Source: Candidatus Aminicenantes bacterium (lineage in GTDB: Bacteria; Acidobacteriota; Aminicenantia; JAMOAD01). From it: 64,000 nucleotides of DNA. How positions within the stretch are numbered: position 1 is the stretch's first letter; each line of letters opens with the position of its first letter. Below, in pieces: positions 3,367 through 63,197 of this stretch. The translations under genes and the position numbers were made by a program. Under the pieces are notes generated by a model. It searched no databases. It had not been told where the DNA came from and worked only from the letters and a program-made list of their open reading frames with translations. The stretch lies in contig JAMOUT010000101.1 in assembly GCA_027061995.1 (NCBI GenBank), positions 12,211 to 76,210 of the forward strand, written 5' to 3'.

Positions 3367-3374
3367 TAACCCTT

Positions 3375-3446
3375 GCGGGCATAGCTCAGTGGTAGAGTAT
3401 CAGCTTCCCAAGCTGAGTGTCGCGGGTTCAAATCCCGTTGCCCGCT
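3375..3446 (+). tRNA. tRNA-Gly (anticodon CCC)
   Basis: Cloverleaf folded by hand. Acceptor GCGGGCA/TGCCCGC. D-stem GCTC/GAGT. Anticodon stem TCAGC/GCTGA with loop TTCCCAA (U33, anticodon CCC, A37). T-stem GCGGG/CCCGT with TTCAAAT loop. Discriminator U73. No encoded CCA. Confidence 0.85.
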
Positions 3447-3471: not shown

Positions 3472-3972
3472 ATGGGATTTATATCTAACAAACCAAAAAA
3501 AGTTTCAAATTCAGGTAATGATTTTGATAATCATTACTCATCGCAAGGGATATCTTCTGAAAAAACCATTATCGGTAAAACCATTAAAATAGAGGGCGAA
3601 GTTAAATCTGACGAAGATGTTATCATAGAAGGTAAAGTAAGCGGCAAAGTGGAAGTCGGCAAAACTCTTACCATCGGAAAGCACGGTTATGTAAACGCAG
3701 AAATATCAGCTCGTATTGTCAGAATTCTCGGAAAAGTTGAAGGTGATGTAAAAGCTATCTATAAAGTTGAGATTGTTCCCGAAGGTAAACTTTACGGAAA
3801 CATTAAAGCTCCTAAGATTGTTATTGCGGAAGGGGCATTATTCAAGGGAAGCGTAGAGATGAATGATAACAAGGAACTTCTTAATAAAAACAATTCTCTC
3901 GAATCACCGAAGACAACTACTGTCGAAAATAACAAACAAGGGAAAAATAATAATTCAAAAAACACTCTTTAA
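3472..3972 (+). CDS. bactofilin family cytoskeletal protein
   Basis: Repetitive beta-helical bactofilin (DUF583) signature (IEGEVKSDEDVIIEGKVSGKVEVGKTLTIGKHGYVNAEI...VEGDVKA...). Disordered K/N-rich C-terminal tail. RBS AGAGAGGA upstream. Confidence 0.8.
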   Translation: MGFISNKPKKVSNSGNDFDNHYSSQGISSEKTIIGKTIKIEGEVKSDEDVIIEGKVSGKVEVGKTLTIGKHGYVNAEISARIVRILGKVEGDVKAIYKVEIVPEGKLYGNIKAPKIVIAEGALFKGSVEMNDNKELLNKNNSLESPKTTTVENNKQGKNNNSKNTL

Positions 3973-44641: not shown

Positions 44642-47369
44642 TCTTAAATTTTGTTCCTATGTTCGGTTTTGAGTGAACAAAGATATCACCATTGTGTTCT
44701 TTTATAATATTATATGTTATGGAAAGTCCGAGACCCGTTCCTTTTTCCGCCTCCTTTGTTGTAAAAAAAGGATCAAAAATAAACGGAATATCCTCTTTAT
44801 CAATACCCCTCCCTCTATCCATTATTTCAAGATTAACCAATTTATCCCGTTTATAGATTTTGATTCTAACCTCCTCCCCTTCCAAAGAGGCATCTATCGC
44901 ATTAATAACAAGGTTTATTATCGCCTGCTGTATTTTAACTCTGTCACCTTTAATCAAAAGATTCTCCCCTTCGATAATAAATTTTATTCTCTTTTGTTTA
45001 ATTTTATGTTCAAGGATTGTTTTTAATTCTTCTATAGCTTCATATATGTTAAAAGGAACTTTTAATCCCTGCCCCTCTCTTGAAAAATTCAAAAGACTTC
45101 TTATAAGATTTCTCATCCTCTCGCTCTGCTCCCTTATTTTAGATGCTATCTCTTTTTGTTTTTTGGTTTTTGCCGTTGACTCAAGTATTTGAGAATAGCT
45201 TGATATTCCGGTCAAAGGGGTGTTAATTTCATGGACTATCCCCGCCGAAAGCAAACCGAGAGACGCTAACTTTTCCCTTGTAATCAATTCCCTTTCAAGG
45301 TTAAGTTTTTCCGTTATATCGGACAACAGCACAATTTTTTCATCACCTTTTTTATCAAGATTAAAAACACTTGCTTCAAGATTTTTTCTATTTTTATTGT
45401 TATCCTTAAAATTAAACCTGAAAAAAGATTCATTAAGATTATGATTTACTATTTTCTCCCCTATATCATTACCGAAAACAGCCTCCAATCTTTCTCCAAC
45501 GGCATTCTCTTTTTTTAAACCGAGTAATTCCTCCATATATTTGTTCCAATGCTTAATTCTTCTCCCTTTATCAACAACAAATATCCCAACTTTAACATTC
45601 TCAAGAATATTATCACTGAAATCCTTTAAAGATCTTATCTCTTCTATCCTGTTTTCAAGTGATGAATATAATGAAGCATTTTCTATGGCAAGAGATATCG
45701 AGGGGGCGATAGCAAGGAGCAATGACCAATCCTCAGTTGTCAGATAGCTCCCGTCGATTTTTTTACTCATTGATAAAAATCCTATTATCTTTTTTTGGGA
45801 AACAAGTGGTAATATATGAAAAGCCTCTATATTATTCAATTTTATTTTATCAAGTCTTTCAAGCCATCTTGTTTCATCAATAGAATAAAACCATAAAAAA
45901 TCATTCGTCCTCATTTTTTCGAGAAAACCCTCGGAAAAGAAAATTCTCCCGAGAAGAGTTTGTTGCTCTTGTGTCATACTATTTAGTAAGATAAAATCTC
46001 CGGATTTTTCCTCAAAAAGATAAAGAGAAGCTTGTTTTAACAGTAAAGCGGATGTAAGAATCTCCAAAAATCTCGAACTCAATACTTTAAGATTTTTCTC
46101 GTAAGTTACTATTTTTGAAAAACTTATAAGATTCTCCCTTTCAAAATATGAACGACGATAAAAGAGTTTATTCGATAGTTCTTCAAGAAAAGTATATAGA
46201 GGGTTTAAGACAAGAACTCCGAGAAGAATAGCGGCAGCTCCTATGGTAATTCCTCCTTGAAAATCGGGAGCAAAGTTCACTATTATAAAGACATAAAAAG
46301 TAAACACTATGACAAAACCCAAAACATATACGAAATACTTCTTGGCTATTATTTCAAAATCCATAAGTTTATAACCTGAGATAGCATAAGCGAAGGTTAA
46401 AGGGATTACCAATTGAAAAAGAACTATGAATTGCGCCCATTCGGGAGGAGCCGGGTTTGAGAAAAAAGGTAAAACATAGAATAAAAAAAACGGAACAAAT
46501 CCCGCATTTATACCCCAAAAAATCCATTTTAGTTGATTTTTATTGTAAATAGTATCCGATTCTTTGTATCTTTTCCAAATAAAAATCAAAGTTAATAAAA
46601 ACACTATACTAAAATATCCGAGAGAAATTTTTGAGAACAGATTTTGTATAAAAGTTTGGTCAAGACCGGATAATTTTTCCAAAGTTTGCGTATAAATAAT
46701 AATATACAAAGCGGTCAAAAAGCCACTAAAAATATAAAGAAAATCTCTGAATTTATTGAATTTCTTATACTCTGTCGGAAAAGTCAGAAAAAAATGGAAT
46801 AAAATCGGAGGAAAAAGAAAAAAGGAGATCTTATCTATCCAAAAAAATATCTGATCCCAGAAATCAAAAGAACTGGTCGGTGAAAATACATAAACAGAAT
46901 AAAAAGTTAAACTTACAAGAAAAAACAGATTTTGGGAGTAAGCTGTTAAGCTTGACGGAAGGAAAAGGATATAATATCCGATAAAAAGTGTGGCAAAACC
47001 GATTAATAAAAGGTAAAAGTAAACCATCGGGATTCTTTTTACTATTATGGCTCCTTGGGAATAAAGAAGATTTTTCCCCCTCGCCAAATAGTAAATGGAT
47101 TTTTCACCAATCTTTTTATTTGCCAAAGCTTGCTGATAATCAAGGGGGGAATTAATCGGAATATTATCAATTTCCAATAGTGTATCCCCTTTTTTCAAAG
47201 GGGGAAAAAAGTTGTGTTCCTTTATAATTTTTTGAACCCTTAAGGAACCATTGGCGTATTCCCAAATAATTCCGTCATAAGTTTCTTTATAAGTAACTTT
47301 TTTATAAATATTAAATATCCCGAGAGATATGAATAATATAACAATAAATGATGTTATTATTTTTCTCAT
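44592..47369 (-). CDS. membrane sensor histidine kinase (periplasmic PDZ-like region, multi-TM module, GAF, PAS, HisKA, HATPase_c)
   Basis: N-terminal signal anchor. ~8 TM helices. H-box SAGIVHEINTPL. HATPase N/G boxes (…DRGRGI…GTGLGLSI…). Confidence 0.75.
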   Translation of the reverse strand: MRKIITSFIVILFISLGIFNIYKKVTYKETYDGIIWEYANGSLRVQKIIKEHNFFPPLKKGDTLLEIDNIPINSPLDYQQALANKKIGEKSIYYLARGKNLLYSQGAIIVKRIPMVYFYLLLIGFATLFIGYYILFLPSSLTAYSQNLFFLVSLTFYSVYVFSPTSSFDFWDQIFFWIDKISFFLFPPILFHFFLTFPTEYKKFNKFRDFLYIFSGFLTALYIIIYTQTLEKLSGLDQTFIQNLFSKISLGYFSIVFLLTLIFIWKRYKESDTIYNKNQLKWIFWGINAGFVPFFLFYVLPFFSNPAPPEWAQFIVLFQLVIPLTFAYAISGYKLMDFEIIAKKYFVYVLGFVIVFTFYVFIIVNFAPDFQGGITIGAAAILLGVLVLNPLYTFLEELSNKLFYRRSYFERENLISFSKIVTYEKNLKVLSSRFLEILTSALLLKQASLYLFEEKSGDFILLNSMTQEQQTLLGRIFFSEGFLEKMRTNDFLWFYSIDETRWLERLDKIKLNNIEAFHILPLVSQKKIIGFLSMSKKIDGSYLTTEDWSLLLAIAPSISLAIENASLYSSLENRIEEIRSLKDFSDNILENVKVGIFVVDKGRRIKHWNKYMEELLGLKKENAVGERLEAVFGNDIGEKIVNHNLNESFFRFNFKDNNKNRKNLEASVFNLDKKGDEKIVLLSDITEKLNLERELITREKLASLGLLSAGIVHEINTPLTGISSYSQILESTAKTKKQKEIASKIREQSERMRNLIRSLLNFSREGQGLKVPFNIYEAIEELKTILEHKIKQKRIKFIIEGENLLIKGDRVKIQQAIINLVINAIDASLEGEEVRIKIYKRDKLVNLEIMDRGRGIDKEDIPFIFDPFFTTKEAEKGTGLGLSITYNIIKEHNGDIFVHSKPNIGTKFKIVFPVHEIKEESNNDI

Positions 47370-48478
47370 AAACTAAATTTTCTGATCCCCCAAACATATA
47401 ATACTCTGTCTTTATTTATATATAAATCAAGAAAAATCTCAGATTCAAGAAAAGGGAGATAGGTATTCAACATAATTTTCGGAATAAATCTATAGTATAA
47501 TCTTCTAAAATATACAGGATTATTCTCACAATTAAAAAGAAAAGGATATTCCACACCTATTTTCGATACCCCTATCTTTTTCATAACTCCCATTTTAAGA
47601 TACAGTGAATTGTTTTTTACATACTTTGAATCAAAAAGATACCCTCCCGAAAGAAAACCTGTAAAATCATCATCATTTTTTATAAAACTCAACTCATATA
47701 AATTAAATGAATCAGTTCCTATTTTAGAATGGTTTTGCAATATTTTAAGTTCATAATTATCAATTTTTTTAATAAGTGAAAATGTTTCAAATAATTCATT
47801 CTGATTATATTCTTCCCTTTTCGTCAAGCCGTATTCGGGGGATAAGGGTTTTTCACCATTTGACAGAGACAATCGGGTTTTTAACCCTTTCACCCATTTA
47901 AACAAAAGCTGTGTATTAAAAAACTCCCCCCCTGTTTTATTAATATCTTTTCCCAACCCGAAATCAAAATTCAAACGACCTGTTTTAATATTTCCGTTAA
48001 AAAAAAGAATAGTCTCTTTCAACCTATTATAACCGGAGTTTATCACACCAATCTCAGAGTTAAAACCTCTGTTTTTATAAGTTAAAGGTGTTATACTAAA
48101 ACTCGAACCACTACCTGTGTGATGCAATTCAAGCACTGAACTCCCTATCACTGGTTTTTTTATTATCTCCCGCTCCTCCTTTTCAAGGATGTGTTTTATC
48201 GAAGCTTTGAATATTAGTTTGAATTTTCTCCTTTTCTTCGCCAAATAAATCCTATTTCTGACTTTTATATAATTAATCGCAAGAGTTCTGTCCCTTTTCA
48301 TTATGGATGTTGTTGTCAATTCTTCTTTATCAGCTTTTCTATCTCTCATCAAAGTTGATATATCTATTTTTTTCTTTTTTGCAAAAGAAGGTATTACAAT
48401 GATTAGAATAGATAAAAGAATTATGATTTTATTCCTAAACATAATATAAATAGTAATTAATTTTTTATCAAAAGTCAA
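47366..48478 (-). CDS. hypothetical secreted/outer-membrane protein
   Basis: The ORF-track start is TTG. The Met 12 codons in (~48442) begins a good signal peptide (MFRNKIIILLSILIIVIPSFA). Beta-rich, aromatic-rich C-terminal region. Stop overlaps the sensor kinase start (ATGA). Confidence 0.4.
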   Translation of the reverse strand: MTFDKKLITIYIMFRNKIIILLSILIIVIPSFAKKKKIDISTLMRDRKADKEELTTTSIMKRDRTLAINYIKVRNRIYLAKKRRKFKLIFKASIKHILEKEEREIIKKPVIGSSVLELHHTGSGSSFSITPLTYKNRGFNSEIGVINSGYNRLKETILFFNGNIKTGRLNFDFGLGKDINKTGGEFFNTQLLFKWVKGLKTRLSLSNGEKPLSPEYGLTKREEYNQNELFETFSLIKKIDNYELKILQNHSKIGTDSFNLYELSFIKNDDDFTGFLSGGYLFDSKYVKNNSLYLKMGVMKKIGVSKIGVEYPFLFNCENNPVYFRRLYYRFIPKIMLNTYLPFLESEIFLDLYINKDRVLYVWGIRKFSL

Positions 48479-55458: not shown

Positions 55459-55971
55459 TCAACTCCCTAATTGATACAATAGTTTAAAGGTTAAACCATA
55501 CAATACGGAGATTAAAATCATTACAACCGTTAAAACAACAACATATTTTAATCCGAAATACAAAATCATCATAGGTAAAAGTTGTAATTTTACGGCGCGA
55601 TTAAATATGAAAACAGCTATTATCTCCCCTTTAATCCCATTATCTTTTAATTCTTTTAAAATCGGATACCAAAGATACACGGAGCCTGAGGATAAAATTC
55701 CGCTTAAAATCGAAACTCCCCATAAAACAAAAGTTTTCTGTTTTTTAAATAATTCGGCCATCTTTTTTACGGGAAACAATAATTCAAGGAAAAACATGAA
55801 TATGAAAATCAAAGCTAAAACAGGTAGTATTTTTTTCATAAGATTAAGAATATTACTGTTTAATACTTTGGTCTTATCAGGATATATTAACAATAATAGA
55901 ATATATAAGATAACCGAAAACAATAAGAATATATAATTATACTTTTTATTTTTTTTCTTTTTCTTATTCAT
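55459..55971 (-). CDS. predicted permease, C-terminal half-type subunit (4-5 TM)
   Basis: Polytopic membrane protein. The start overlaps the stop of the upstream membrane ORF (ATGA), suggesting a two-subunit/split permease. Confidence 0.4.
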   Translation of the reverse strand: MNKKKKKNKKYNYIFLLFSVILYILLLLIYPDKTKVLNSNILNLMKKILPVLALIFIFMFFLELLFPVKKMAELFKKQKTFVLWGVSILSGILSSGSVYLWYPILKELKDNGIKGEIIAVFIFNRAVKLQLLPMMILYFGLKYVVVLTVVMILISVLYGLTFKLLYQLGS

Positions 55972-56387
55972 AGGACACCCATAATAAAAACCGTTATAAA
56001 AGCAACTATTATTGAAAAAATAAAACTTAACAAATTCCTTAGAATTGAAAACTTTTTACCGAGAAACATCATCTCCGCCGGAATTTGAACAAACCCGACC
56101 GTTATCCAGGAAACCAAGAATGCTGTAACAGCAATAAGACCGACTCCGTTTTTTAGTAATTCCCCGCCTATAATATAACTGTTTATCGGATTTCCGGCAA
56201 ATAAAGAACCAAAAGCGGCTCCGATTATCGGATCAAATGCATTATGGTGAAAAAGTGTGTTCAAGAATTTTTTCGGAACAAATGTATTAAATATTCCCAT
56301 AAGAATAATAACTCCAATTATTATGGGAGAAGCAAATATAATTGAATTAAAAGCTTTTTTAAAAGCTTGTTTAATCTTTAAAAACAT
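55968..56387 (-). CDS. predicted permease, N-terminal half-type subunit (4 TM)
   Basis: Polytopic membrane protein with glycine-rich helices (GAAFGSLFAGNPINSYIIGG). Translationally coupled to 55459..55971. Confidence 0.4.
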   Translation of the reverse strand: MFLKIKQAFKKAFNSIIFASPIIIGVIILMGIFNTFVPKKFLNTLFHHNAFDPIIGAAFGSLFAGNPINSYIIGGELLKNGVGLIAVTAFLVSWITVGFVQIPAEMMFLGKKFSILRNLLSFIFSIIVAFITVFIMGVL

Positions 56388-57054: not shown

Positions 57055-57060
57055 TATTCA

Positions 57061-57182
57061 CCTCCTTTATAAAGCTTCAAAGCTTAAAGTTACAAGCCTC
57101 AGGGCAGCTTTTTGGGCTTAAAGCTATTGAAACCCAAAGTATAAAGCCTCGAAGCTTCAAAACCACAAGCCTCGAAGCTTTT
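57061..57182. repeat. repeat-rich flank (left arm) of the four-helix-bundle gene cassette: multiple aagcctcgaagc / aagcttcaaagctt units plus the 32-nt inverted-repeat partner of 57759-57793
   Basis: The 57093-57124 segment caagcctcagggcagctttttgggcttaaagc is the reverse complement (about 29/32) of 57759-57793. aagcctcgaagc occurs at 57145 and 57167. Confidence 0.55.
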
Positions 57183-57539
57183 TCAATCTTTGTTTTTCGT
57201 CTTTTCTATCAAAGAATATAACATTCTTCTTATCTCTTCATCTCTTTTATTTAATTCTTCGTATTCTTCCACTGTTATATATTTTAAATCTCTACTCAAC
57301 ATCATTTGATATAACAATTCCTCACAACTTCCATATGCTATCTTTACATATCTTAAAAACTCCTTCTCACTCCCTCCTCCCCCTTCCTTTAGATTCATCG
57401 GTATTGAATACGATGCTCTTCTCATCTGAGCAACAAGTCCGTATATCTCATCTTTTGGATAATTTTTTGTTATTTCATATATTCTCAATACCAATTTATG
57501 GGACTTTTTAAAAACTTCATACTTATTTATATCTCTCAT
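57183..57539 (-). CDS. four-helix-bundle protein of the 23S rRNA intervening-sequence / Avd-like family
   Basis: 118 aa. Family signature …YPKDEIYGLVAQMRRASYSIPMNLKEG…EFLRYVKIAYGSCEELLYQMMLSRDLKYIT… (TIGR02436-like pattern: fpk.E.ygL.sQlrRAa.Si..NIAEG…sl.El.t.l.la.dl.yi). Confidence 0.8.
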   Translation of the reverse strand: MRDINKYEVFKKSHKLVLRIYEITKNYPKDEIYGLVAQMRRASYSIPMNLKEGGGGSEKEFLRYVKIAYGSCEELLYQMMLSRDLKYITVEEYEELNKRDEEIRRMLYSLIEKTKNKD

Positions 57540-57567
57540 CTTTCTCTTTATTATTCATTATCATTTT

Positions 57568-57793
57568 AGCTTCGATGCTTGGAGGCTTTATGCTTTTGGC
57601 TTTTAATTGTTTTCCCATTCCATAACTCCAAATATAATATATACAATATTAGAGAGATTTTTGCAAGGCATCTGAAAAAGCCTCGAAGCCTCGGAGCATC
57701 AAAGCCTCGAAGCTATTTAAAATCATGCAAACTTTTGCAAAAGCTTTATGCTTTATTAGCTTTAAGCCCAAAGAGCTGCCTTTGAGGCTCTTG
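57568..57793. repeat. repeat-rich flank (right arm) of the four-helix-bundle gene cassette
   Basis: gcttcgatgcttggaggcttt (57568-57590). Tandem aaagcctcgaagcctcggagcatcaaagcctcgaagct (57677-57714). Inverted-repeat partner gctttaagcccaaagagctgcctttgaggctcttg (57759-57793). Confidence 0.55.
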
Positions 57794-57870
57794 GCTTTTG
57801 GCTTCTTTTTACAATACTTGTTTTTTTTTAAATAATATTTTAAACTATTAAATTATAAGGAGGTTTTTAA

Positions 57871-62762: not shown

Positions 62763-63197
62763 TTTTTCACTATTTTTATTGTAATATATTTTTAGGAAAA
62801 TTCAAAATCATTAAATATAAACCCCAAAAATCGGATAATAAAGATAAAAACATTGGCAAGATAGCGAGAATATCATAAAAGAGTATAAATGGGATATAGG
62901 GTTGAGGAAGTTTTCATCGGGAGATGGACACAGGAATGGAATAGTGTTTTTATTCGGAGCAATAGCTCAGAGTTCAATAAGATATTTTTTGTCCCCCTTT
63001 TTCAGGATAACTCACTTTGAGCGTTTGTATAATAATAAATATATTAATATAAGAGTGCGAAAAAAAGCAAAAAGGTGTAAAATTAAGAATAAAAGAGAGA
63101 AAGAGAAAATGAGAAAAAGATTAAAGATAGAGATATTATTAAAGAGGATTGGAGGAGGAGAATCTTCGAGGCTTTTCAGACGCAACTTATATAGCCC

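What the first reader, a model, noticed from the sequence alone, without database searches (positions are those of the whole stretch)
57055..57800. rRNA-intervening-sequence-like cassette outside any rRNA gene: Avd-like four-helix-bundle gene enclosed by a long inverted repeat and aagcctcgaagc repeat arrays
The 118-aa ORF at 57183-57539 belongs to the four-helix-bundle family. This family is found inside 23S rRNA intervening sequences and is homologous to the DGR accessory protein Avd (established knowledge). In this window it is not inside an rRNA gene. Both of its flanks are repeat-rich: a ~32-nt near-perfect inverted repeat (57093-57124 vs 57759-57793) could close a ~700-nt stem-loop around the whole ORF. 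Each arm also carries 2-3 copies of aagcctcgaagc-type units and HindIII-like aagctt palindromic pieces. This is exactly the architecture of an excised rRNA IVS (long RNase III-cleavable stem enclosing the ORF), but apparently free-standing. It may be a mobile or structured-RNA element, or a remnant of an IVS that transposed out of rDNA.
Basis: partly seen in the sequence, partly recalled or inferred. Interest (0 to 1): 0.7.

Follow-up and report, generated by a model that had tools for sequence, protein, structure and literature searches.

The report
Free-standing IVS-like four-helix-bundle gene cassette
A small gene of the family best known from inside ribosomal-RNA "intervening sequences" sits here between ordinary genes, wrapped in inverted arrays of short repeats as a discrete multi-copy DNA cassette; its relatives in several phyla are built the same way, which points to a possible source population for the rRNA insertions.

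Summary
The 118-aa ORF (57183-57539, minus strand) is a clear PF05635/TIGR02436 protein, and no rRNA gene is in the window. The flanking AAGCCTCGAAGC units and nested inverted repeats are far beyond chance and close a long stem on either strand.

New findings:
- Two related genomes share the flanking genes up to 57807 and from 57071. The repeat-bounded unit 57072-57806 is therefore a discrete 735-bp segment. It lies where the relatives have a cation-efflux gene.
- The core (5' arm, ORF, 3' arm) recurs at 97-99% identity in at least three contexts in the same metagenome, and every breakpoint lies in an arm.
- 29 of 43 non-redundant relatives have complementary 5' and 3' flanks built from lineage-specific 6-8-nt tandem units. 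None of 40 relatives tested lies in rRNA.
- ORF-less hairpins with the same arms occur in at least one lineage.
- The protein is under purifying selection (median dN/dS 0.14).
- Arm mismatches show no G·U bias, so the pairing looks maintained at DNA level.

It is not a DGR Avd: it scores below the Avd cut-offs, and no reverse transcriptase or TR/VR repeats were found.

Best reading: a mobile stem-loop cassette, the free-standing counterpart of ORF-bearing 23S IVSs. RNase III processing is inferred, not shown.

The parts
57072..57806 (-). Whole cassette: a 735-bp segment specific to this genome, bounded by imperfect terminal inverted repeats of about 50 nt
   Evidence: Nucleotide homology to the orthologous loci L080 (82-84%) and L083 (74-78%) runs 58409-57807 and 57071-55918. 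Between these points the relatives carry a promoter and a roughly 300-aa cation-efflux gene instead.
57183..57539 (-). Four-helix-bundle (23S_rRNA_IVP / TIGR02436) gene, 118 aa
   Evidence: PF05635 116.7 bits; TIGR02436 114.2 bits. PDB sequence matches 2gsc (7e-14) and 2rld (1e-8). R41, S45, N49 and E52 are invariant among 26 relatives. Median dN/dS among relatives is 0.14.
57556..57612 (-). Inner 5' arm (C): AAGCC-type units in the putative 5' UTR, ending about 28 nt before the start codon
   Evidence: Inverted repeat I2, 57130-57168 / 57564-57602. Duplex with the inner 3' arm is -40.5 kcal/mol, z -6.2. This arm is part of the 97-99% identical core shared with L001 and L031.
57128..57182 (-). 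Inner 3' arm (D): two GCTTCGAGGCTT units starting 3 nt after the stop codon
   Evidence: Homology with L001 and L034 ends at 57140, inside this arm.
57740..57806 (-). Outer 5' terminal arm (A): AAGAAGCCAAAAGCCAAGAGCCTC followed by the core GGCAGCTCTTTGGGCTTAAAGC
   Evidence: Inverted repeats I1 and I14. Core at 57759-57780. Duplex with the outer 3' arm is -66.1 kcal/mol, z -11. The terminal module recurs as the inner 5' arm in L074 and L002, and as its complement at the 3' end of L005.
57072..57140 (-). Outer 3' terminal arm (E+F): an inverted copy of the GGCAGCTTTTTGGGCTTAAAGC core plus AAGCTT-type units. It abuts the host Shine-Dalgarno sequence of the 218-aa gene.
   Evidence: This arm is absent from the L001 and L034 copies. 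Host homology resumes at 57071.
57674..57726 (-). Internal array (B): AAGCCTCG x 4.5 on the plus strand. It is 3'-arm-type on the gene strand and can form an ORF-less hairpin with arm C around the promoter-like site.
   Evidence: Tandem Repeats Finder: 57678-57713, period 8, 4.5 copies. Inverted repeats I6, I10 and I12. B/C duplex -36.8 kcal/mol, z -6.3.
57634..57666 (-). Putative cassette promoter: TTGCAA, 17-nt spacer, TATATA
   Evidence: Read directly from the sequence. The consensus scan did not list it because the -10 hexamer lacks T at position 6. The paralogue L002 has an 11-of-12 match, TTGACA-17-TATTAT, at the equivalent place (3871-3899), upstream of its 5' arm. This part is an inference.

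Best explanation
The region is an ORF-bearing stem-loop cassette: a discrete, multi-copy DNA module. In it, a functional four-helix-bundle (IVP-family) gene with its own promoter sits in the loop of a long hairpin. The hairpin's arms are inverted arrays of short (6-8 nt) tandem repeats.

Shown:
- The module has sharp boundaries at its terminal inverted repeats.
- In this lineage it occupies the place of a different gene.
- It recurs almost unchanged in other contexts, with breakpoints in the arms.
- Many diverse relatives have the same flank architecture.

Inferred:
- The arms are the element's working ends. They pair whenever the region is single-stranded.
- At DNA level, as hairpin- or cruciform-prone, slippage-prone repeats, they mediate the recombination that moves and reshuffles the cassette. 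Template-switch or gene-conversion processes keep them complementary.
- At RNA level, a transcript spanning both arms forms a stem of at least 30 bp. RNase III would cut this stem, as it does in the homologous 23S rRNA intervening sequences. The cassette would thereby be cut out of the host transcript, which would make it tolerable in operons or in rRNA.
- The protein is probably a multimeric nucleic-acid-binding factor. The related XCC0516 is reported as a homopentamer and the DGR accessory protein Avd is a homologue. It may act on the element's own arms. That last step is speculation.
For: - Boundaries: homology to two orthologous loci stops at 57807 and 57071, exactly at the terminal repeats.
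- Multi-copy and mosaic: the core 57597-57140 is 97-99% identical in the window, in L001 (followed by a small HTH_Rpn_C gene) and in L031/L034 (short ORF upstream, a lysS-like gene downstream). Further paralogues at 70-87% identity occur in the same samples. All breakpoints fall in arm units, and a metagenome contig ends inside the gene.
- Family-wide architecture: 29 of 43 non-redundant copies have complementarity between 5' and 3' flanks at z > 4. In the smaller first set the flanks beat those of 39 neighbouring genes (Mann-Whitney p = 6e-5).
- The arms sit close to the ORF. The 3' arm starts at +1 in 11 of the 29 significant copies.
- The arms are periodic: 33 of 41 5' flanks exceed the 95th percentile of shuffles, with periods of 6-8 nt and 7 the commonest.
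- Arm sequences differ completely between lineages (AAGCC, CAGCATT, CAAGC, ACCGTGN, GTGAGTA) yet remain complementary.
- ORF-less siblings: L025 has the same arms around the ORF (404 nt between the arms) and around 39 nt only.
- Arm mismatches: 43 G·U, 51 A·C, 60 transversions, so no wobble bias. This favours DNA-level maintenance.
- The protein is under purifying selection (dN/dS 0.04-0.26).
- Promoter-like sites lie upstream of the inner 5' arm in the window and in L002, so both inner arms would be co-transcribed. A transcript from that promoter still folds with its 5' and 3' ends paired (z -3.7).
- IVS precedent: the Coxiella IVS has a 28-bp terminal stem cut by RNase III, and tandem heptamers of variable number just 5' of its S23p ORF (PMC4990558).
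- IVP genes have been reported wedged between cas genes (PMC3936711).
Against: - No transposition or recombination enzyme is associated with the cassette, and no clean empty site or target-site duplication was found. The comparison is a replacement of 945 bp by 735 bp, not a simple insertion.
- That all copies come from one genome is inferred from shared samples and near-identity. It is not proven.
- There is no expression or processing data, so RNase III cleavage rests on analogy alone.
- The absence of G·U enrichment argues against strong RNA-level selection.
- 12 of 43 copies show no significant flank repeat. Three copies have significant direct arrays (L021, L060, L036), and two of those lack inverted arms.
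- ORF-less siblings were seen clearly in only one of 13 loci of at least 3 kb, with one more borderline, and not in this window's 64 kb.
- The quasi-palindromic unit in this copy makes local hairpins a competing fold.
Confidence: 0.55

Rival explanations
1. The arms are purely a cis-regulatory RNA structure of an ordinary resident gene. Pairing between the 5' UTR and 3' UTR would control the stability or translation of the four-helix-bundle mRNA, with no mobility involved.
For: - The inner arms lie between the promoter-like site and the start codon, and directly after the stop codon.
- Polarity is conserved: AGC-type units are always 5' and GCT-type always 3'.
- The transcript folds with its 5' and 3' ends paired.
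- The gene's own Shine-Dalgarno sequence is weak, which would fit tight control.
Against: - There is no excess of G·U over A·C in 154 arm mismatches.
- The outer arm pair lies outside the predicted transcript.
- The segment is lineage-specific, with boundaries at the arms.
- Near-identical cores occur in different contexts, with breakpoints in the arms.
- ORF-less hairpins with the same arms exist.
Confidence: 0.17
2. It is a non-autonomous transposon with terminal inverted repeats (MITE-like), moved by a transposase encoded elsewhere. The four-helix-bundle gene is a mere passenger.
For: - Imperfect terminal inverted repeats of about 50 nt lie exactly at the ends of the lineage-specific segment.
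- It is multi-copy.
- Decayed copies exist: L005, L019, L016 and L011.
Against: - The arms differ completely between lineages and track the ORF lineage.
- The arms are register-degenerate tandem arrays rather than a defined transposase-binding end.
- The ORF is always present in the same orientation and is under purifying selection.
- No target-site duplication can be called.
- No transposase was seen next to any of the loci whose genes were listed.
Confidence: 0.13
3. It is an orphan or remote accessory gene (Avd) of a diversity-generating retroelement.
For: There is weak homology to Avd models: NF033474 at 7.7e-9 and PF22296 at 2e-7. The homology between IVP and Avd is established (PMC10053308).
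Against: - Both Avd models score below their curated cut-offs (35.8 against 80; 31.9 against 40).
- No reverse transcriptase was found among the ORFs from 37 to 64 kb.
- There are no TR/VR-type repeats in the 64 kb.
- No copies on viral contigs and no PADLOC match.
Confidence: 0.03
4. It is a relic of a 23S rRNA intervening sequence that moved out of rDNA.
For: The ORF family is the same and the stem-around-the-ORF layout matches that of ORF-bearing IVSs (PMC4990558).
Against: - None of 40 related loci lies in rRNA.
- The family is very large and overwhelmingly stand-alone.
- The cassette has its own promoter-like site, which an IVS would not need.
- The gene is intact and under selection.
Confidence: 0.04
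5. It is a by-product of simple-sequence slippage in an AT-rich spacer. Under this view the complementarity is an accident of the palindromic AAGCTT-containing unit.
For: The unit is quasi-palindromic, and arms of the same polarity also pair. Short tandem arrays are slippage-prone: L009 has 16 copies.
Against: - Lineages with non-palindromic units (GTGAGTA, ACCGTGN, GGGATNT) show the same complementarity between 5' and 3' flanks.
- This is the only such cluster in the 64 kb.
- The boundaries are sharp.
Confidence: 0.03

Closest known systems
ORF-containing 23S rRNA intervening sequences (Leptospira, Coxiella burnetii and others)
   Same: - The ORF family is the same (PF05635).
- The ORF is enclosed by terminal complementary sequences that close a long stem.
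- Short tandem repeats lie just 5' of the ORF. Coxiella has two or three GACAGAT heptamers depending on the strain, and this window has 8-nt units.
- ORF-bearing and ORF-less versions both exist.
- The ORF has a weak ribosome-binding site (PMC4990558).
   Different: - This cassette lies between protein-coding genes, not in helix 25 or helix 45 of 23S rRNA.
- It carries its own promoter-like site.
- Its arms are nested and more complex.
- The ORF is intact and under purifying selection, whereas the Coxiella ORF is reported to be decaying.
- RNase III excision has not been shown here.
Avd, the accessory variability determinant of diversity-generating retroelements
   Same: A homologous four-helix-bundle fold. 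Avd is a small, basic, multimeric protein that binds nucleic acid and the reverse transcriptase (background knowledge; PMC10053308).
   Different: The ORF scores below the Avd-specific cut-offs. There is no reverse transcriptase, no TR/VR pair and no phage context.
REPIN-RAYT systems (a gene flanked by inverted REP sequences, with dispersed ORF-less REP doublets)
   Same: A small gene is bracketed by inverted copies of the same repeat, and that repeat also forms ORF-less hairpin doublets nearby (L025). The elements sit in intergenic spacers.
   Different: The enclosed protein is not an HUH/Y1 transposase and has no known catalytic motif. The arms are tandem arrays of 6-8-nt units, not a fixed REP sequence of 20-40 nt. 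The gene is multi-copy rather than single-copy.
Free-standing four-helix-bundle proteins of solved structure (XCC0516, PDB 2gsc; PDB 2rld) and those annotated in many genomes
   Same: The same family by sequence. They are stand-alone genes of about 120 aa wedged between unrelated genes, for example between cmr3 and cmr2, or between the guanylate kinase and NMN adenylyltransferase genes.
   Different: Nothing about flanking inverted tandem-repeat arms, cassette boundaries or ORF-less siblings was found for them in the searchable literature.

Membership tests
PF05635 / TIGR02436 four-helix-bundle (23S_rRNA_IVP) proteins | Score above the curated cut-offs of the family models | tested here: met
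   PF05635 116.7 bits against 33.8; TIGR02436 114.2 bits against 24.
PF05635 / TIGR02436 four-helix-bundle (23S_rRNA_IVP) proteins | Conserved RxxxSxxxNxxE motif and sequence similarity to solved four-helix-bundle structures | tested here: met
   R41, S45, N49 and E52 are invariant in 26 relatives. The motif is described in PMC3936711. PDB matches: 2gsc 7e-14 and 2rld 1e-8.
23S rRNA intervening sequence (IVS) | Inserted within a 23S rRNA gene (helix 25 or helix 45) | tested here: not met
   There is no rRNA in the window. The flanks are protein-coding genes conserved in relatives.
23S rRNA intervening sequence (IVS) | Terminal complementary sequences that close a long stem around the element | tested here: met
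   outer -66 kcal/mol (z -11); inner -40.5 kcal/mol (z -6.2).
23S rRNA intervening sequence (IVS) | Excised from the precursor RNA by RNase III without religation | not testable with these tools
   This needs RNA end-mapping in wild type and an rnc mutant, or in-vitro cleavage.
DGR accessory protein Avd | Score above the Avd-specific model cut-offs | tested here: not met
   NF033474 35.8 bits against 80; PF22296 31.9 bits against 40.
DGR accessory protein Avd | Adjacent reverse transcriptase | tested here: not met
   Pfam scans of the ORFs of about 160 aa or more from 37 to 64 kb, apart from the two permease-like ORFs at 55459-56387, found no reverse-transcriptase domain. Three of these ORFs (370, 173 and 184 aa) have no Pfam match at all. 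The first 37 kb of the window was not scanned.
DGR accessory protein Avd | Template and variable repeat pair (TR/VR) | tested here: not met
   No direct repeat of 40 nt or more above about 80% identity anywhere in the 64 kb.
REPIN-RAYT-like system | Gene flanked by inverted copies of a repeat that also occurs as dispersed ORF-less doublets | tested here: inconclusive
   Flanking inverted arms: yes. ORF-less doublets: clear in L025, borderline in L020. None was seen in this window's 64 kb. The whole genome was not available.
REPIN-RAYT-like system | The enclosed gene encodes an HUH/Y1 (RAYT) transposase | tested here: not met
   The only Pfam and NCBIfam matches are four-helix-bundle families.
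MITE or TIR transposon | Terminal inverted repeats at the element's boundaries | tested here: met
   Imperfect terminal repeats of about 50 nt lie at 57072-57140 and 57740-57806, and they coincide with the homology breakpoints.
MITE or TIR transposon | Target-site duplication and a clean empty site | tested here: inconclusive
   The relatives carry a different 945-bp segment at the site, so there is no empty site. Only a trivial TAAA is shared at both junctions.

The most novel reading that the evidence does not exclude
Four-helix-bundle (IVP) genes and hairpins with tandem-repeat arms may together form a widespread and so far undescribed class of bacterial genetic element. Under this reading:
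- The multimeric protein recognises the periodic arms of its own hairpin, as DNA or RNA.
- It promotes their maintenance or spread, in a relationship like that between RAYT and REPINs.
- ORF-less hairpins are the non-autonomous derivatives.
- The classical 23S rRNA intervening sequences are simply the copies that landed in rDNA.
Probability: 0.15. Interest if true: 0.85.

Novelty: new variant of a known kind. Interest (0 to 1): 0.6.

Why it matters
The origin of 23S rRNA intervening sequences and the role of their conserved ORF have been open since the early 1990s. The proposals that they are transposition remnants or mobile elements are reviewed in PMC4990558.

This locus and its relatives show three things:
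- The same ORF family lives mostly outside rRNA, at least among the relatives sampled here.
- Most of those copies have a conserved stem-loop cassette architecture.
- The arms evolve in concert, and the cassette behaves as a discrete, multi-copy, recombining module.

This supplies a plausible source population for IVSs and turns the question into experiments: RNase III mapping, binding of the protein to the arms, and censuses of ORF-bearing and ORF-less hairpins.

It also has practical consequences for annotation. These cassettes break metagenome assemblies. They can displace or separate host genes and their promoters. Their tandem-repeat arms could be mistaken for other kinds of repeat.

Tried and rejected
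- Long-flank duplex folding (200 nt against 150 nt) was too noisy, because large internal loops inflate both the observed and the shuffled energies. It was replaced by local alignment of the 5' flank against the reverse complement of the 3' flank.
- A multiple alignment of whole cassettes aligned the ORF but scrambled the low-complexity arms. Pairwise short-word BLAST was used instead.
- A column-wise covariation count on the alignable 'CAAGC' subgroup was abandoned. Hexamer arrays pair in several registers, so the columns are not homologous.
- The 26-sequence profile was too diverse for the locus scan. A 10-sequence profile worked.
- A viral-contig scan found no relatives. PADLOC found no match for the ORF.
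- Rfam found no family in the window region, even at E up to 1, nor in 40 related loci.
- Ralph & McClelland 1993 could not be read.
- The extra repeat-unit match at 63161-63183 and the nearby short ORF do not share significant similarity with the cassettes (13 nt, E = 0.19). They are treated as chance.
- P0161, a 1,218-aa hit with 23 matched stretches, is a perfect 51-aa tandem repeat and is dismissed as an assembly artefact.
Full report

Yes. The window holds a 118-aa ORF at 57183-57539 on the minus strand. It scores far above the curated cut-offs of PF05635 (116.7 bits against 33.8) and TIGR02436 (114.2 against 24). By sequence it matches the solved four-helix-bundle proteins 2gsc and 2rld.

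No rRNA gene is present in the 64 kb; the only Rfam match at gathering score is a tRNA. The unit AAGCCTCGAAGC, allowing one mismatch, occurs 8 times against 0.13 expected, and 7 of those lie within 57144-57713. This is the only place in the window where AAGCY/RGCTT pentamers are dense.

The repeat finder gives two nested inverted repeats:
- an outer pair, 57103-57139 / 57744-57780, extended by 57080-57101 / 57783-57804;
- an inner pair, 57130-57168 / 57564-57602, which hugs the ORF.

Folding 57060-57810 closes the outer stem on both strands (z -7.3 and -9.3). The arm-against-arm duplex energies are -66 kcal/mol (outer) and -40.5 kcal/mol (inner), 6 to 11 standard deviations beyond shuffles.

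One caveat applies to this copy. Its unit, AAGCTTCGAGGCTT, is itself nearly palindromic, so local hairpins and even pairing between arms of the same polarity compete.

**2. What are the true limits of the thing?**

The downstream 218-aa gene has orthologues at 81% and 74% identity in related metagenome genomes. Those contigs keep the window's operon: the 218-aa gene, a 139-aa gene, a gene of about 170 aa, and a THUMP methyltransferase. They also keep the divergent GAF-like gene.

Nucleotide homology to the window runs 58409-57807 and 57071-55918. Between those points the relatives carry a promoter and a roughly 300-aa cation-efflux gene (945 bp in L080), while the window carries 735 bp, 57072-57806. 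No remnant of the efflux gene is left in the window.

The repeat-bounded unit is therefore a discrete DNA segment whose ends coincide with imperfect terminal inverted repeats of about 50 nt. The strong Shine-Dalgarno sequence just beyond it belongs to the host gene. Because this is a replacement, no empty site or target duplication can be called.

**3. Anatomy on the gene strand, 5' to 3'**

- Outer arm A (57806-57740).
- An array of GGCTT-type units, B (57726-57674; AAGCCTCG x 4.5 on the plus strand).
- A promoter-like site, TTGCAA-17-TATATA (57666-57638; read directly from the sequence, not listed by the scan).
- Inner 5' arm C (57612-57556).
- A weak ribosome-binding site and the ORF.
- Inner 3' arm D, starting 3 nt after the stop codon (57182-57128).
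- Outer arm E+F (57140-57072).

The paralogue L002 has an 11-of-12 promoter match at the equivalent position, upstream of its 5' arm. A transcript from the window's promoter-like site still folds with its 5' and 3' ends paired (z -3.7). The outer arm A would lie upstream of that transcript.

**4. It is multi-copy and mosaic.**

The identical protein is encoded on another contig of the same metagenome (L001). That contig matches window 57633-57140 at 98.4% and then continues into a different gene, a 71-aa HTH_Rpn_C protein, without the outer arm.

Two further contigs carry the same core at 97-99% identity. L031 has a short ORF upstream and L034 has a lysS-like gene downstream. The shared core is 57597-57140, and every breakpoint lies in an arm unit.

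The L001 and L034 arrangements differ by a segment bounded by two direct copies of the GCTYCGAGGCTTTTT unit. That pattern is what recombination between arm units would produce.

The same samples also hold:
- a 78% paralogue followed by another small HTH_Rpn_C gene (L002/L003);
- a 70% paralogue (L030);
- an 87% pseudogene copy on a contig labelled Candidatus Aminicenantes (L005-L007 = L017).

One assembly ends a contig inside the gene. That these copies share one genome is inferred, not proven.

**5. The architecture is family-wide.**

I collected 19 loci from reference genomes and 53 from metagenomes. The reference-genome loci come from Aminicenantes, WOR-3, Clostridia, Melainabacteria/Gastranaerophilales, Tannerellaceae, Thermodesulfovibrionales, Acidobacteriota and Chryseobacterium. 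For each copy I aligned the 150 nt before the start codon against the reverse complement of the 150 nt after the stop codon.

- Of 43 non-redundant copies, 29 have inverted complementarity at z > 4. Three have significant direct arrays, and two of those lack inverted arms.
- In the smaller first set, the flanks beat those of 39 neighbouring genes (Mann-Whitney p = 6e-5).
- The arms sit tight against the ORF. The 3' arm starts at +1 in 11 of the 29.
- The arms are built of short tandem units. 33 of 41 5' flanks and 24 of 41 3' flanks are periodic beyond the 95th percentile of shuffles, with periods of 6-8 nt and 7 the commonest. One array reaches 16 copies.
- The unit differs by lineage (AAGCC..., CAGCATT, CAAGCN, ACCGTGN, GTGAGTA, GGGATNT, CCGCTNC), yet the two arms of a copy stay complementary.
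- Among 154 mismatched positions in the arms there are 43 G·U-type, 51 A·C-type and 60 transversions. There is thus no sign that pairing is selected specifically in the sense RNA. The pattern fits concerted evolution at DNA level.
- None of the 40 loci tested lies in an rRNA gene or matches any Rfam family.

**6. ORF-less siblings**

In L025 (Gastranaerophilales) the same arm family forms three hairpins within 3 kb:
- one with 404 nt between the arms, which holds the ORF (2935-2967 / 3372-3404);
- two compact ones, with about 30-50 nt between the arms, on either side of an lpxC-like gene.

A borderline case exists in L020. Within about ±3 kb this was seen clearly in one of 13 loci with significant arms, and not in the window's own 64 kb.

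**7. The protein matters.**

dN/dS across 44 pairs of relatives is 0.04-0.26, median 0.14. R41, S45, N49 and E52 are invariant. Decayed copies also exist (L005, L019, L016, L011), as expected for a family with turnover. Single-sequence search reaches 14,290 clusters at 50% identity, almost all stand-alone proteins of about 115-130 aa.

**8. What it is not**

It is not a DGR component. Both Avd models score below their cut-offs. No reverse transcriptase was found among the ORFs scanned from 37 to 64 kb. There are no TR/VR-like repeats in the window, no viral copies and no defence-system match.

It is not an IVS in the strict sense, because it is not in rRNA. 'IVS relic that left rDNA' is unlikely given that free-standing copies are the rule.

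**9. How it most likely works**

Shown:
- a discrete, TIR-bounded, multi-copy module whose arms are hot spots of rearrangement;
- arms that evolve in concert;
- a protein that is under selection.

Inferred:
- The arms pair whenever the region is single-stranded.
- At DNA level this makes them recombinogenic and lets template switching keep them complementary.
- At RNA level, a stem of at least 30 bp around the ORF is the kind of substrate RNase III cuts in the homologous IVSs. In Coxiella, the IVS has a 28-bp terminal stem cut by RNase III, and tandem heptamers of variable number sit just 5' of the ORF (PMC4990558). Such cleavage would detach the cassette from host transcripts. That would explain why these genes are tolerated between cas genes (PMC3936711), between housekeeping genes and, occasionally, inside rRNA.

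What the protein does is unknown. By analogy with Avd and the pentameric XCC0516, I guess that it binds the element's own periodic arms.

**10. Novelty**

The gene family and its free-standing occurrence are known. I found no description of the flanking inverted tandem-repeat arms, the cassette boundaries, the mosaic multi-copy behaviour or the ORF-less siblings in seven literature searches, and I know of none. The library lacks most subscription journals, so prior description cannot be excluded.

I rate it a new variant of a known kind (an IVS-type stem-loop element outside rRNA). It is of moderate to high interest because it gives the old question of where IVSs come from a concrete and testable answer.

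Noticed in passing
L001 512-727; L002 4428-4610; L003 2054-2236: A small gene of 60-71 aa directly follows the four-helix-bundle gene in three copies. It carries a precomputed HTH_Rpn_C (PF27070) hit and a weak PADLOC match to a 'putative invertase' model (8e-8). It may be a partner gene or a second cassette.
   Followed up: partly
L031 1303-1518; L001 about 780-940; L005 about 3773-3900 (degenerate): A short ORF family (…IEQRLKIIKLLIIIRYLYELQK…) lies next to the cassettes and reads into an arm unit. It has no Pfam match. Whether it is a real protein or just a conserved nucleotide module is unclear.
   Followed up: partly
window 57072-57806 compared with L080 604-1548 and L083 about 757-1722: This lineage lacks the cation-efflux (CDF) gene and the operon promoter that two relatives have at this site. 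The downstream operon (the 218-aa gene through the THUMP methyltransferase) may now depend on the cassette's promoter.
   Followed up: partly
L009 3388-3502: The 3' arm of this copy is expanded to 16.4 tandem copies of GCTGAAC, against 4.6 copies of the complementary unit on the 5' side.
   Followed up: no
L021 and L060 (flanks of the gene at about 3001 and 1501): In these two copies the flanking arrays are direct rather than inverted repeats (z_dir 22 and 15). The stem model does not explain them.
   Followed up: no
L013, L014, L015, L039, L043, L044 (WOR-3-like group): The 3' arm abuts the ATG of the next gene. The 5' hexamer array (CAAGCN) reads in frame as AQAQAQ… and may form the C-terminal tail of the upstream ORF.
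   Followed up: no
L008 2995-3375 and 4981-5340; L012 2911-3258 and 4578-4946: Two four-helix-bundle genes lie within 2 kb of each other. In L008 they are only 42% identical and have different arm units (CAGC-type and GGGATNT-type).
   Followed up: no
window 63161-63183: A solitary CTTCGAGGCTTTTCAGACGC resembles the cassette's 57690-57668, and a short ORF (MRKRLKIEILLKRI…) lies upstream. Only 13 nt match exactly (E = 0.19), so this is probably chance.
   Followed up: yes
window 47366-48478 (minus strand): A 370-aa ORF with no Pfam match even at E up to 0.1, located between a histidine kinase gene and an exbB-like gene.
   Followed up: no
P0161 (from the protein-representatives search): A 1,218-aa 'protein' made of a perfect 51-aa tandem repeat that partly matches the family. 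It is almost certainly an assembly artefact.
   Followed up: yes
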